Source: Sphingomonadaceae bacterium
Lineage (GTDB): Bacteria; Chloroflexota; UBA6077
NCBI GenBank assembly: GCA_050261575.1
Contig: JBLNDL010000006.1
Coordinates: 1 to 62,589, forward strand
Length of the DNA: 62,589 nucleotides
Direction: 5' to 3'
Numbering within the stretch: position 1 is the stretch's first letter; the number at the start of each line of letters is the position of its first letter. Shown piece by piece: positions 30,001 through 33,000 of this stretch. Made by a program: the position numbers.

Positions 30001-33000
30001 TCCAACTACGTGCAGATCCTGGGCACCTGGCTCCACCGGGCGCACGACATGCTGGCCGATGCCGTTCCCAAGACCTCTCTCTTGCGGGACTACAGGTCCA
30101 ATCCCAGCCACTTCGGGGGATTGGAGGCCAGCGTGGAACGGGCAGGGGTGAACGCGGGACGGGTGAACCTTCGGACCCGCAGGGAGTACAACAGCATCTT
30201 CGTGAGCCCGTGGGGCTCCTTTGGGGATGCCCTTGCCCGGCAGGTGCCCGATGTGGCGCAGGCGGATCTGTCGAAGGTGAACAGGGCGGTTTTGGCCAGG
30301 GACATGGCCGAGGACATGGTGTACACGCTCCTACACGAGCTTGTCCACAATACCTATCGGATGGAGGACGGGCCTTTCGCCCAGGCTCTCCGGGCGGTTG
30401 TTCGTGAGCTGAGGCCCGTCAAGCGGGATCTCACCGCCGAGCTGGACGGCTACCTGCAGGGCGTTGTGGACAAGGAGATGGAACCGCTCTACACTCATTA
30501 CCGGACGGTTCGGGGCGCTGGACCGTCCGACATGGGGGACTACCTTGGAGAGGGGTATGCGGCACAATTCTACAGTGAGCGGGAAATTGCGCGACGAGGA
30601 GCGGGCGGAGGCGGAGAAGGCGGGCTTCTACCTACTGAAGGCGGCCATGTATCCCCGTCCCCAGGCACCACACGTGGATTTGCCGGCCCTGAGGGGCTAC
30701 TCCAAGGGGCTTCTGGAGGAGGGGTTGGACGCTCGCCGGATCTACAACGAGGCACGAGAGCTGACCATTCGAGTTGGCAGGCCGGCCCCGCCAACGTGGG
30801 AGGAGTTGTGGGGGGAACTGCCCCCTCCCTCCGGGCAGTAGCCCAACCGACCTCGGCACCGAACTGGGTCACCCTCCAGCGTTCCAGGGATGTCGCGACA
30901 GAGAGGTCTCTCGCACCCTCGCCCGCCAAGGCGCAGCTACAGACGGCTAGGCAGCAGGCACTCCTCCGCCGCTGGCAGAACGCTGCGCCTGAGGTGCAGG
31001 AGCGGATGTGGAAGAACCCGGAGGTGCGTGAGGCGGTCATGCAGAATCTATCAAGAGAGCTTGCCCGGATACGTCAGGGTGACGCGCCTTGGGGCAAGTA
31101 GCACGCGGGGCCAGGCAACAACCTGGCCCCGTTTCTTTTCTGCGGGGAGATCGCTGACCCTACAACTGAACCATAGACATCGTTCTGTGTGTTGAGTAAG
31201 CCAGCCATGACTGCTCCTGTCTGCACGCAGCAGGCCGCGCGGATGTTGACAGCCCGGCCTACTTGCCGCAGACTGTGGCCGCAATCGAATACATGGCTAT
31301 CCAGAGCGGCGCACTCGCGTCCGGCAACCTGGCGGCGACCGCCAAGGTGCCCGTCCTCAGTCTGAGGAGATAGGCCCGATGAGGGAACCAACGGTCGCGC
31401 ACCCCGCCCGCGCGCGGGTCTTTTCGTTTGCGCCGTCTTCTACGGCTCATGTTGCAAGGCCGGGGGTGTGGGCGAGCGCAGGGTCGTATCGGACGGAAGC
31501 GCCTTGTTGAGCGGGAGAGGCATGTCCGTGACCAGTGAAGACGAGTCCGACGCGGTAACGGTAGTCACTTACGGCGGGGAGAGGTGGCTGGCCAAGGTGA
31601 GAGTGTGCAAGACCTGCGGGAGGCACAGGGGAGCTATGTACAGCCATACCAACAGTACGAGACCCATCACCTGCCTCTGTGATGGGCGACCGTGCCCCGT
31701 ATGCGGCAAGAACAGGCTGCCCAAGCCAGGCACCGAGGTCATGGATGGACACGGCAGGATATGGCATATCCCCTGGTTCCGCGGCATGGGCGGCTGTCCC
31801 GAGTGCGCCGCCAAGCGTCCAACCGTCAAGACCTACGACGAGGTGTTGATGTCGGGCGCCGGGGACGGAGACACCATAAGGTGGCTGGAGGAGCTGTTCG
31901 TTCTGGAAGAGCCGAAGGGGCCATACAGCGAAGGCTAGGCGTCACCAGGAAGATGAGGGGGTGCACGTTGTGCCTCTGGAGCCGATTTCCTTAGCCGATG
32001 CGCGCCGAAAATGGTATAATGACCTTGCATGGTTCTTTGCCGACACTGCGGCGACCTGCGTCTCATAGTTCCGCAGAGCGGCTGACTATACGGGGTGTAG
32101 CGCAGTTGGCAGCGCGCATGGTTTGGGACCATGAGGTCCCCGGTTCGAGTCCGGGCACCCCGACCATGTCTGGTGGTCCCCGGCCGCCTCGGAGTTCTGC
32201 CGGTCCGCGCCCCCGTCCATTCCTGAGTTGTCCCAACCCCCACTCCTCGCTTTCCCGATCCAATACATTGACATGCTTCGATATAGTGGTATCCTGGTAG
32301 CATGAAGCGAATCGGCATCGAGAAGCTGAACGACGGGTGCTGCGAGCGGCCGGGACCGCCGGGCGAATCCAGGTTCCCAAACCTGGACGAGGGCGCGAGG
32401 CTATTCCGAGCACTCGGCGACGAGACCCGCCTGAGCATCGTCAGGCGCCTCGCCGAGGAGGGCGAGTTGTGCGCCTGCGACCTGATCTGCTGCGACCTCG
32501 CCCAGCCCACCATCTCCCACCATCTGAAGGTGCTGCGCGAGGCGGGGATCGTCAACGCAGAGAAGCGTGGCCTCTGGGTCCACTACTCCCTCAACCGAGA
32601 AAGGCTCCGGGAGCTGCGGTCGTGGCTCCCGTAGATGCGCCGGAACATTCCTGCGCTCCTCGCCCTCCATCTCCAGGCAAGCATCGCGTCAGCGCCGCAC
32701 CCTAGCGTGGCACCCTCCAGCGAGCCTCGCCCTCGTGAACCATGCCTCAGGGCGGAGCCGGGGCACGTGGTGTGCCGTACCACGCTCCACCCCGGCGAAG
32801 GGTCGAGGGCCCGAGTCCGAGCTTCGACCGGCCACCGGGGTGCCGCGACGGCTGGCCGAGTCCGCGCAGGCTCGGCCTCTCGGGGTCCGCGGAGTCGAGT
32901 CGACACGTGGAGGTGCAAAGATGCATCGAGGGATGATGAGACCGCCGGGTTACCCGCTGATCCCGTTCCTGTTCCCAATCGGTGTCGTCCTCAGCCTGAT

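What a model noticed while it worked through the whole genome (the two positions that open the first line are those of the whole stretch)
31292..31938. SAM-I/IV riboswitches on two tRNA-integrated islands control an orphan cysteine-rich protein, not a methionine gene
Two of the genome's three SAM-I/IV riboswitches (C6:31292-31401 and C1:3569-3674), each followed by its own terminator hairpin and U-run, sit in front of paralogous genes (g00230, 138 aa; g00004, 272 aa) that share only a 75-residue domain with four Cys pairs and an HxPWF motif and belong to no described family; both lie inside mobile islands bounded by 48-bp and 39-bp duplications of tRNA-Pro and tRNA-Met. I read the module as a mobile-element gene that is switched on when cellular S-adenosylmethionine falls, for instance when an invading phage destroys SAM to escape restriction, so that the island senses infection or methyl-donor stress through a riboswitch. 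New would be a SAM riboswitch t [...]
Evidence so far: Riboswitches: rna.tsv and cmscan: 47.3 and 60.2 bits, gathering 41.1, model 1-99; the third copy precedes metK (C37:181-294). Terminator-like hairpins with U-runs between aptamer and start codon in both. The two loci are alike at DNA level only in the aptamer (78% over 110 nt) while the proteins keep 42% identity over 85 aa (E 7e-23). Island borders: exact repeats C6:8877-8924 = 32090-32137 and C1:997-1035 = 6260-6298; integrases g00214/g00226 and g00002 inside. Family: word-index search of 5.8 billion proteins finds nothing for g00004 and only itself for g00230; exhaustive phmmer over 1.84 billion representatives: 119 proteins at E<=1e-3, 8 at <=1e-10; invariant C27, C30, C49, C51, C56, C59 [...]
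(Added by a program. Inside this text positions count along the whole contig: contig position 1 is position 1 of the stretch shown here. "Call 12" and the like, gene names such as g00115 and contig names such as C1 are that model's own, and its searches are not shown. The text may have been shortened before it was handed on; [...] marks where a part breaks off. The agent that wrote the report below was given it as the finding of a first reader that could run no searches.)

Follow-up and report, generated by a model that had tools for sequence, protein, structure and literature searches.

The report
SAM riboswitch gating an unknown zinc protein
A genuine S-adenosylmethionine riboswitch, copied from the host's own SAM-synthetase leader, switches on a small eight-cysteine protein of an undescribed family carried on a mobile island, and the same pairing recurs in distant bacteria, often beside restriction-modification and other phage-defence genes.

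Summary
Window 31292-31401 is a SAM-I/IV aptamer (47.3 bits, cut-off 41.1). It has its own promoter-like site and a terminator (31403-31428), and precedes a 138-aa ORF (31522-31938) at the right edge of a 23-kb tRNA-Pro island. A paralog on contig C1 has the same layout.

In 90 loci of the wider family, 46 have a SAM riboswitch on the same strand upstream (37 SAM-I, 9 SAM-I/IV). After removing near-duplicates this is 26 of 46 groups.

The two island leaders are near copies of this lineage's metK leader. The protein matches nothing in Pfam, NCBIfam, PHROGs or PADLOC. A confident model found no fold match.

The family is a rare accessory gene: 1 of 400 other genomes of the window's phylum, 0 of 400 other Patescibacteria. 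In 27 of 49 groups it lies within 4 kb of restriction-modification genes, other defence genes or mobile-element genes.

Best reading: a low-SAM-induced accessory protein tied to methylation-based immunity or mobile-element biology. The riboswitch logic is well supported. The protein's role is inferred only.

The parts
8877..8924 (+). attL: 48-bp copy of base 32090 plus the first 47 nt of tRNA-Pro; the left border of the island
   Evidence: Exact direct repeat D1. Only two copies in the window, with up to 3 mismatches allowed. Scored as a partial tRNA, 38.6 bits.
9059..10030 (+). tyrosine integrase next to attL
   Evidence: Pfam Phage_integrase E 5.9e-37.
19562..23314 (+). Type IIG restriction enzyme-methyltransferase; SAM-dependent cargo of the same island
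   Evidence: Pfam N6_Mtase and Type_ISP_C. PADLOC REase_MTase_IIG E 1.8e-82.
25798..26787 (+). second tyrosine integrase; the island is composite, with an IS transposase at 17740-18903(-) and an IstB fragment at 24643-25164
   Evidence: Pfam hits.
31105..31141 (+). intrinsic terminator of the preceding 693-aa gene, which makes the riboswitch gene a separate transcription unit
   Evidence: 11-bp stem plus T-run.
31246..31274 (+). promoter-like site: -35 TTGACA, 17-nt spacer, weak -10; aligned with the promoters of metK leaders
   Evidence: Read from the sequence and from the alignment of 10 leaders. The consensus scan did not report it.
31292..31401 (+). SAM-I/IV aptamer
   Evidence: RF01725 47.3 bits against GA 41.1. 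In 19 aligned SAM-I/IV aptamers, 13 of 18 predicted pairs show compensatory changes.
31403..31428 (+). terminator of the expression platform (OFF switch)
   Evidence: Terminator-like sites at 31403-31418 and 31406-31419 with a T-rich tail. Same position as the terminators of the metK leaders.
31513..31520 (+). ribosome-binding site (GGGAGAGG)
   Evidence: Read from the sequence.
31522..31938 (+). 138-aa protein with the eight-cysteine domain (residues about 11-100) and a C-terminal helix plus GPYSEG tail
   Evidence: ORF. 118 relatives. AlphaFold2 mean pLDDT 85, and 94-97 for residues 11-100.
32012..32020 (+). extended -10-like element (TG-n-TATAAT) in front of tRNA-Pro, lying inside the island end
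   Evidence: Read from the sequence. The consensus scan did not report it.
32090..32137 (+). attR: the right border of the island
   Evidence: Exact repeat of 8877-8924.
32091..32166 (+). tRNA-Pro(UGG), the only gene with this anticodon in the genome
   Evidence: ARAGORN. Rfam tRNA 68.7 bits.

Best explanation
SHOWN. A SAM-I/IV riboswitch with its own promoter-like site and an intrinsic terminator precedes a free-standing gene for a small eight-cysteine protein, probably a two-zinc protein. The cassette lies at the right edge of a 23-kb integrative island in tRNA-Pro. That island also carries a Type IIG restriction-modification enzyme. A second copy sits on a 5.3-kb tRNA-Met island. Both leaders derive from the metK leader of this bacterial lineage. 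Across phyla the family is a rare accessory gene. More often than not it carries its own SAM riboswitch, of whichever class its host uses, and it lies in restriction-modification or defence islands or on mobile elements.

INFERRED FROM THE ANATOMY. When SAM is plentiful the aptamer folds and its 3' tail is held in the pseudoknot with the P3 loop. The terminator then forms and transcription stops before the ORF. When SAM falls, an alternative hairpin overlapping the tail prevents termination and the protein is made.

INFERRED, NOT SHOWN. The protein links the state of the SAM pool to methylation-based immunity or to the life of the mobile element. SAM is the cofactor of every DNA methyltransferase, and of cleavage by Type I, III and IIG enzymes.

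Of the two versions, I favour a back-up effector or regulator that is induced when the SAM pool collapses, for instance through a phage SAM lyase. The other version is a safety device that damps restriction when the host can no longer methylate its own DNA.
For: Riboswitch and platform.

The leader is copied from metK. The C6 aptamer is 83% identical to the genome's own metK aptamer and 84-87% to those of a sister genus. The C1 leader keeps the promoter, terminator, post-terminator element, RBS and start position of the metK leader.

Family-wide link:
- 8 of 10 genome loci and 38 of 80 metagenome loci have RF00162 or RF01725 upstream on the same strand.
- 43 of these 46 lie within 650 nt of the conserved domain.
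- After grouping at 90% identity, 26 of the 46 groups with at least 200 nt of upstream DNA have one.
- 29 of 32 distinct leaders have a terminator-like hairpin with a T-run (my own scan, no shuffle control).

Regulon position. In three Patescibacteria genomes the only SAM-I riboswitch is the one before this gene. In a Thermoleophilia genome 2 of 3 precede family paralogs.

Accessory nature:
- 0 clear hits in 60 relatives.
- 1 of 400 other genomes of the phylum.
- 0 of 400 other Patescibacteria.
- Contigs matching the island side have lower depth than the flanking chromosome in three soil runs: 2.6-6.4 against 33, 4 against 14.9, and 4 against 7.8.

Context. 27 of 49 groups have R-M genes (12), other defence-like genes (8) or mobile-element hallmarks (11) within 4 kb. 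Examples:
- two MTases plus a Type II REase directly upstream (L026, L034);
- Type I hsdS/hsdR (L027);
- GajA/GajB (L058);
- DrmD plus an MTase (L029);
- a PrrC-like PDC-S06 protein (L093).

Background. G421 has 3 N6_N4 MTase matches in 0.7 Mb, and 2 of them lie within 3.3 kb of the cassette.
Against: - No experiment and no expression data exist.
- 20 of the 46 groups with enough upstream DNA have no riboswitch at the gathering score.
- The protein hits no PADLOC model.
- No relative was found in viral contigs.
- Near-identical cassettes have a conserved right flank and a variable left flank. So adjacency to defence genes may only reflect an integration hot spot next to the gene.
- In L061 the gene lies directly behind metK in a riboswitch-led operon, which points to metabolism.
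- A riboswitch would also fire during ordinary methionine starvation.
- In a random sample of 150 Patescibacteria, the single SAM-I riboswitch precedes metK in 26 of 29 cases and this family in none.
- The context flags were assigned by hand from Pfam and PADLOC tables. 13 of the 313 non-redundant neighbours were not scanned. No formal background model was run.
Confidence: 0.5

Rival explanations
1. Restriction alleviation. The protein is made when SAM is too low for protective methylation. It then blocks or down-regulates restriction enzymes, so the cell or the island does not cut its own DNA.
For: R-M genes are the commonest flagged neighbours, in 12 of 49 groups. They include SAM-independent Type II enzymes directly upstream in the same orientation (L026, L034). 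The window's island carries a Type IIG enzyme. metK was not found in three Patescibacteria genomes that carry the family, so SAM supply may fluctuate there.
Against: The neighbours are of many unrelated types: Type I, II, IIG and IV, DISARM, Gabija, Thoeris TIR. One small protein is unlikely to inhibit them all. Many loci have no R-M gene within 4 kb.
Confidence: 0.2
2. General low-SAM stress protein. A zinc-binding nucleic-acid or protein binder adjusts transcription, translation or replication when SAM is short. It has no link to defence. It travels on mobile DNA and lands in variable regions by chance.
For: The riboswitch link by itself only says 'needed at low SAM'. Supporting points:
- The gene is co-transcribed with metK in L061.
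- The left flank of the cassette is variable and the right flank conserved.
- 22 of 49 groups carry no defence or mobile-element flag.
- Typical members are lysine-rich.
Against: The gene is very rare and patchy for a general stress function. Over half of the groups lie in defence or mobile contexts.
Confidence: 0.22
3. Metabolic helper in methionine or SAM salvage, for example a zinc-thiolate protein that binds homocysteine or handles a methyl group.
For: Classical SAM regulons are metabolic. Zinc-cysteine sites activate thiols in methionine synthases (established knowledge, recalled). L110 has msrA nearby, and L061 has metK next door.
Against: There is no conserved metabolic operon partner: the largest neighbour cluster occurs in only 5 loci. 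The domain is about 90 aa with no enzyme-like match. The distribution is rare and patchy.
Confidence: 0.06
4. Relic. The riboswitch copies are leftovers of duplicated metK leaders, and the ORFs are not regulated by them or are not real genes.
For: The leaders clearly derive from metK. The C6 leader has lost the metK RBS and start, and carries about 90 nt of unrelated spacer.
Against: The same pairing occurs in 46 of 90 loci, with two riboswitch classes. The eight cysteines are conserved over 114 sequences. The model is confident. The aptamer still scores above the curated cut-off.
Confidence: 0.02

Closest known systems
SAM-I/IV riboswitch (Rfam RF01725) in metK leaders
   Same: Same aptamer class, same terminator-type expression platform, same promoter layout. 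The island copies are 75-87% identical to the metK aptamers of this lineage.
   Different: The downstream gene is not metK, metH or any known methionine or SAM gene. It is an undescribed zinc-type protein on a mobile island.
SAM-I (S-box, RF00162) regulon of Firmicutes and others
   Same: In Patescibacteria, a Thermoleophilia MAG and a MAG labelled Gammaproteobacteria, relatives of this protein are preceded by SAM-I aptamers with terminator-like hairpins.
   Different: As far as I recall, the described S-box regulon holds biosynthesis, transport and salvage genes. I did not check this in a paper. This family matches no Pfam, NCBIfam or PHROGs model.
abiF motif RNA / RCd22 leader of the prophage AbiF system of Clostridioides difficile (bioRxiv 10.1101/2025.04.15.648962; passages read)
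   Same: A structured 5' leader on a mobile element keeps a defence gene off by premature termination.
   Different: No metabolite ligand is known there, and the RNA also acts as an antitoxin. The protein is unrelated. Here the leader is a standard metabolite riboswitch.
Guard-type defences that fire when restriction is disabled, such as PrrC with EcoprrI (recalled, not checked in a paper)
   Same: The logic of the favoured reading: a second line that reacts to the loss of restriction-modification. A PrrC-like PDC-S06 gene lies directly upstream of one family member (L093).
   Different: Those systems sense a phage inhibitor through protein contacts. Here the proposed sensor is an RNA that reads the cofactor pool.
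Phage SAM lyases that defeat Type I R-M and BREX (T3 SAMase; recalled; the term occurs in papers listed, which I did not read)
   Same: They would provide the stimulus, a sudden loss of SAM, that an OFF-type SAM riboswitch converts into gene expression.
   Different: No SAM lyase was looked for or found here. The link is hypothetical.

Membership tests
SAM-I/IV riboswitch (RF01725) | Covariance-model score above the curated gathering score over the full model | tested here: met
   47.3 bits against 41.1, model 1-99.
SAM-I/IV riboswitch (RF01725) | Helices supported by covariation among related copies | tested here: met
   19 aptamers aligned. 13 of 18 predicted pairs have compensatory changes. 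P1 and the pseudoknot were not in the predicted consensus.
SAM-I/IV riboswitch (RF01725) | Binds SAM | not testable with these tools
   Needs in-line probing or ITC.
SAM-I/IV riboswitch (RF01725) | Controls a methionine or SAM metabolism gene | tested here: not met
   The downstream ORF has no Pfam or NCBIfam match. The third copy in the genome does precede metK.
tRNA-integrated genomic island | Direct repeats that duplicate part of a tRNA gene, with a tyrosine integrase inside | tested here: met
   48-bp exact repeat, tRNA-Pro, integrase at 9059-10027. The duplicated part is the 5' end of the tRNA, not the more usual 3' end.
tRNA-integrated genomic island | Present in only part of the population, or able to excise | tested here: inconclusive
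   Island-side contigs have lower depth than the flank in three soil runs, and other left junctions exist at 32090. No empty-site joint could be tested, because the island is longer than the 20-kb limit of the tool.
Known zinc-ribbon / treble-clef / HNH families (Pfam) | Profile match above the curated cut-off | tested here: not met
   0 families for the window protein. Among 114 members there were only scattered hits at E>=1.7e-4 to zinc-ribbon models, in 1-2 members each.
Known folds in the PDB | Structural match of the confident model | tested here: inconclusive
   Best Foldseek E 0.097. Best VIA-align Z over 48,161 chains 3.2. A profile search of PDB sequences gave Cas12g at E 9e-4 over 48 residues, and bL32 at E>=0.05.
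Known anti-phage defence proteins (PADLOC-DB 2.0) | Profile match | tested here: not met
   0 families for the window protein and for the C1 paralog at E<=1e-5.
Phage protein families (PHROGs v4) | Profile match | tested here: not met
   0 for the window protein. Of 114 members, 3 hit phrog_15427 'endonuclease' at E>=0.0044.

The most novel reading that the evidence does not exclude
The SAM riboswitch works as an infection sensor. Phages that destroy SAM to disarm restriction-modification, BREX or DISARM thereby lift the riboswitch block on a small zinc-protein effector carried in defence islands and on mobile elements. This would be an RNA-based guard of a cofactor pool. It would be a class of immune sensing that needs no protein sensor, and it has been rebuilt repeatedly from the local metK leader.
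Probability: 0.25. Interest if true: 0.9.

Novelty: new variant of a known kind. Interest (0 to 1): 0.75.

Why it matters
SAM riboswitches are textbook regulators of methionine and SAM metabolism. Here one is found again and again in front of an uncharacterised eight-cysteine protein. The pairing occurs in two riboswitch classes and several phyla. The protein has no metabolic signature, a confident model without a known fold, a rare and patchy distribution, and a habit of lying beside DNA methyltransferases, restriction enzymes and other defence genes.

This gives a concrete and cheap experimental handle on two open questions:
- How do cells and mobile elements cope when the cofactor of DNA methylation runs out?
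- Can a metabolite riboswitch serve immunity?

Even if the function proves mundane, a new, widely distributed member of the SAM regulon would be defined.

My six full-text searches found no paper on this pairing. I read passages of one of the listed papers. For the others I saw only listings, and supplements were not examined.

Tried and rejected
**Searches for DNA of close relatives**
- The 4-sequence alignment A4 found none in metagenome contigs, genome contigs or viral contigs. So the closest relatives (59% and 49% identity) could not be checked for a riboswitch.
- The tool that fetches their contigs is closed.
- The wider alignments A3 and A2 were too diverse for the locus finder.
- The broad-family alignment A5 found nothing in viral contigs.

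**Annotation and structure**
- Pfam, NCBIfam, PHROGs and PADLOC gave no family.
- The ESM Atlas gave no hit at 0.9 or more, and its own model of the protein is poor.
- No fold match was found.

**An HNH-like reading**
- I considered it because of a C-x2-C ... H ... N ... H ... C-x2-C order, and because the gene lies before a small terminase gene in L066, L070 and L074.
- No profile or fold match supports it.
- From recall, the spacing looks shorter than in HNH motifs.

**Complex prediction**
- I tested the family protein of L026 against the adjacent Type II restriction enzyme. The result was no verdict, score 0.00. This is not evidence either way.

**Other attempts**
- Expression: no RNA holder is listed for the stretch.
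- The other Cys-rich protein behind a SAM-I/IV riboswitch in G036 shares only the first C-x2-C-G-x2-R-G knuckle with this family (hhalign probability 43% over 20 columns). I do not count it as a member.
- The G156 relative (L025) has no riboswitch at the gathering score.
- A third copy of the att repeat, which would split the C6 island in two, was not found with up to 3 mismatches.
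Full report
**1. The observation**

cmscan of the window finds one riboswitch. It is SAM-I/IV (RF01725) at 31292-31401 on the + strand, 47.3 bits against a gathering score of 41.1, covering model positions 1-99. 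A search of the whole 3.72-Mb assembly gives three matches:
- C1:3569-3674(-), 60.2 bits;
- C37:181-294(+), 51.1 bits;
- the window copy.

The C37 copy precedes metK.

The preceding 693-aa gene ends with its own strong terminator at 31105-31132. The riboswitch gene is therefore a separate transcription unit. A -35 TTGACA at 31246-31251 and a weak -10 align with the promoters of metK leaders.

A terminator-like hairpin with a T-rich tail follows the aptamer at 31403-31428. The ORF runs 31522-31938 (138 aa) behind a GGGAGAGG ribosome-binding site.

The paralog on C1 (2687-3505, minus strand, 272 aa) matches residues 12-97 at 43% identity, E 3e-20. Both proteins end in GPY-S-E-G/E.

**2. The islands**

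An exact 48-bp repeat, 8877-8924 = 32090-32137, covers the first 47 nt of tRNA-Pro(UGG) at 32091-32166. No third copy exists with up to 3 mismatches. Between the repeats lie:
- a tyrosine integrase (9059-10027);
- an HNH protein and an AAA_25 protein;
- DUF4145 and DUF4062 proteins;
- an IS transposase and an IstB fragment;
- a Type IIG restriction enzyme-methyltransferase (19562-23311; PADLOC E 1.8e-82);
- a second integrase;
- an M23 peptidase and a 693-aa protein;
- last, the riboswitch cassette, which ends 152 nt before attR.

On C1, a 39-bp repeat (997 and 6260) overlaps the 3' end of tRNA-Met and encloses an integrase and the second cassette.

Contigs of three soil runs were laid on 30600-33000. 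Depths were:

| Run | Island side | Chromosome beyond the tRNA |
|---|---|---|
| X1 | 2.6-6.4 | 33 |
| X2 | 4 | 14.9 |
| X4 | 4 | 7.8 |

Other left junctions occur at 32090. This fits an element carried by part of the population. Contig depths are crude, and no empty site could be tested.

**3. Where the leaders come from**

I aligned ten SAM-I/IV leaders from this genome and its class. The island copies nest among the metK leaders of the window's own bacterial family:

| Copy | Own metK aptamer | Sister-genus metK aptamers | The other island copy |
|---|---|---|---|
| C6 | 83% | 83-87% | 75-77% |
| C1 | 80% | 75-78% | 75-77% |

The C1 leader also keeps the metK promoter, terminator, post-terminator element, GAAAGGAG ribosome-binding site and the position of the start codon. 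So each cassette took over a complete metK control region of this lineage.

In 19 aligned SAM-I/IV aptamers, 13 of 18 predicted pairs show compensatory changes.

From the sequence, the 3' tail of the aptamer can pair with the P3 loop. It also overlaps a hairpin that competes with the terminator. This is my reading of the platform and was not tested.

**4. The protein family**

Exhaustive phmmer over 1.84 billion representatives gives 118 proteins at E<=1e-3 and 8 at <=1e-10. An alignment of 114 of them keeps four cysteines invariant. It keeps four more cysteines, a histidine and a proline in at least 90% of sequences, within a core of about 75 residues.

Nothing matches in Pfam, NCBIfam, PHROGs or PADLOC.

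Single members are fused to an ADP-ribosylglycohydrolase, a dual-specificity phosphatase or a receiver domain. Others carry recurrent N- or C-terminal extensions or transmembrane tails.

AlphaFold2 with this alignment gives mean pLDDT 85, and 94-97 for residues 11-100. Neither Foldseek (best E 0.097) nor VIA-align against 48,161 chains (best Z 3.2) finds a similar fold.

**5. The link to SAM is general**

This is the main new result. An alignment of 15 typical members retrieved 10 loci from species-representative genomes:
- seven Patescibacteria;
- one Acidobacteria;
- one MAG labelled Gammaproteobacteria;
- one Thermoleophilia.

It also retrieved 80 loci from metagenomes.

At Rfam gathering scores, a SAM riboswitch lies upstream on the same strand in 8 of the 10 genome loci. 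The same holds for 38 of the 80 metagenome loci. In all, 37 are SAM-I and 9 are SAM-I/IV.

Forty-three of the 46 lie within 650 nt of the conserved domain. About 11 loci have under 200 nt of upstream DNA.

After grouping at 90% identity, 26 of the 46 groups with enough upstream DNA have one. No other riboswitch class was seen before the gene. A home-made scan finds a hairpin plus T-run after 29 of 32 distinct aptamers (no shuffle control, and AT-rich genomes give false positives).

In three Patescibacteria genomes the only SAM-I match in the genome is the one before this gene. A fourth has a second one, before a Cys/Met PLP enzyme. A Thermoleophilia genome has three, two of them before family paralogs.

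metK was not found in three of these four Patescibacteria genomes with two different queries. These are MAGs, so absence is not shown.

**6. It is nevertheless a rare accessory gene**

- No clear relative occurs in 60 relatives of the window's genome.
- One occurs in 400 other genomes of its phylum.
- None occurs in 400 other sampled Patescibacteria.

In a random sample of 150 Patescibacteria, 31 genomes have one SAM-I match each. Of the 29 loci other than the centre's, 26 precede a gene with the MetK N-terminal motif, which I recognised by eye. None precedes this family.

**7. Neighbourhood**

There is no conserved operon partner: the largest neighbour cluster occurs in 5 loci. Pfam and PADLOC scans covered 300 of the 313 non-redundant neighbours within 4 kb (also 59). 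They show many DNA methyltransferases, restriction enzymes and other defence genes:
- two N6_N4 methylases plus a Type II enzyme directly upstream (L026, L034);
- Type I hsdS/hsdR (L027);
- an N6 methylase with an Old-like ATPase (L028);
- DrmD with a methylase (L029);
- Eco57I-type enzymes (L030, L049);
- GmrSD (L038) and Mrr (L069);
- R.HinP1I (L095);
- a PrrC-like PDC-S06 protein (L093);
- GajA/GajB (L058);
- a Thoeris-type TIR protein (L062);
- AbiEii (L098).

Mobile-element genes also occur: integrases, rolling-circle Rep proteins, transposases, a primase-polymerase and small terminases.

By my hand tally, 27 of 49 groups carry such a flag, and 12 of those have R-M genes. As a rough background, G421 has three N6_N4 methylase matches in 0.7 Mb, and two of them lie within 3.3 kb of the cassette.

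Against over-reading this, cassettes that are 87-93% identical in DNA begin 12-30 nt before the aptamer. Some share their right flank but have different left neighbours. The gene may therefore simply border an integration hot spot.

**8. What it most likely is**

The riboswitch part is ordinary in mechanism: an OFF switch by termination, so the protein is made when SAM is low.

The target is the unusual part. Taken together, its rarity, its mobility, its repeated re-coupling to the local SAM riboswitch and its company make a plain metabolic role unlikely.

I put about 0.5 on a role that ties the SAM pool to methylation-based immunity or to mobile-element biology. Within that, a back-up effector or regulator induced by collapse of the SAM pool is somewhat more likely than restriction alleviation. 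A defence-unrelated low-SAM stress protein gets about 0.2. None of these has been tested.

**9. Comparison and novelty**

The aptamer is a member of RF01725. The regulated gene is outside the known SAM regulon.

The nearest analogue in logic that I could read is the abiF-motif leader. It gates a prophage AbiF toxin by premature termination (bioRxiv 10.1101/2025.04.15.648962; passages read).

Six full-text searches found no paper on a SAM riboswitch linked to this protein, to Patescibacteria, to defence islands or to SAM lyases. Subscription journals and supplements were not covered.

Noticed in passing
L022:8891-9715 (G036:C31): In another family of the same order, a SAM-I/IV riboswitch (54.6 bits) precedes a different 209-aa cysteine-rich protein. 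That protein shares only the first C-x2-C-G-x2-R-G knuckle with the family studied here. Four further ORFs without any Pfam match follow it.
   Followed up: partly
L023:2606-7975 (G008:C515) and L024:6462-13547 (G006:C2): Two more non-methionine SAM-I/IV targets occur in the window's class. One precedes a 497-aa unknown protein, with a HerA/mad8-like ATPase 2 kb downstream. The other lies between a type I-E Cas1 gene and an amidohydrolase plus a Lon-like protease.
   Followed up: partly
L002 (C37) 181-360; window 31429-31450: After the terminator, the metK leaders of this bacterial family carry an element complementary to the first ~18 nt of the aptamer. The minimum-energy fold of the full metK leader pairs the two. 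The element is kept in the C1 island copy and decayed in the window copy.
   Followed up: partly
window 31990-32166: tRNA-Pro(UGG) is the only gene with this anticodon among 51 tRNAs. The island duplicates its 5' part, not the usual 3' part. The island end therefore supplies the 5' half of the tRNA and an extended -10-like element (32012-32020).
   Followed up: partly
L044, L045, L046, L053, L060, L071: LOOT RNA (RF03000, 56-89 bits) lies within a few kb of family genes in six Patescibacteria-like metagenome loci, twice in L045.
   Followed up: no
P0003 C-terminus; window 31918-31935: One close relative ends in an acidic ...IPF tail, like the C-terminal tail of SSB. The window protein, its paralog and two relatives end in GPY-x-E-G/E after an amphipathic helix. 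Both look like short docking motifs.
   Followed up: no
L066:393-1150, L070:4004-4759, L074:3983-4740: In three loci without a riboswitch, the family gene lies directly before a small terminase subunit gene. In many phages that position is taken by HNH endonucleases.
   Followed up: partly
window 27269-31101: Three genes precede the cassette: a 269-aa unknown, an M23 peptidase and a 693-aa protein with an H-E-x-x-H motif and long low-complexity stretches. They have no defence or phage family match. Their role in the island is unknown.
   Followed up: no
window 13689-15643; L036:335-1132: A DUF4145 protein and a DUF4062 protein sit side by side in the island. A DUF4145 protein also lies directly upstream of a family cassette in a metagenome contig.
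   Followed up: no
G421, G422, G423 (whole genomes): metK was not found in three of four Patescibacteria genomes that carry the family, with Pfam PF02773 and with a short Patescibacteria MetK as queries. In a random sample of the phylum, the single SAM-I riboswitch usually precedes metK.
   Followed up: partly
L061:388-4321: One metagenome contig has two SAM-I riboswitches. The second leads an operon of a 141-aa ORF, metK and then a 298-aa family member with a TPR-like N-terminal extension.
   Followed up: no
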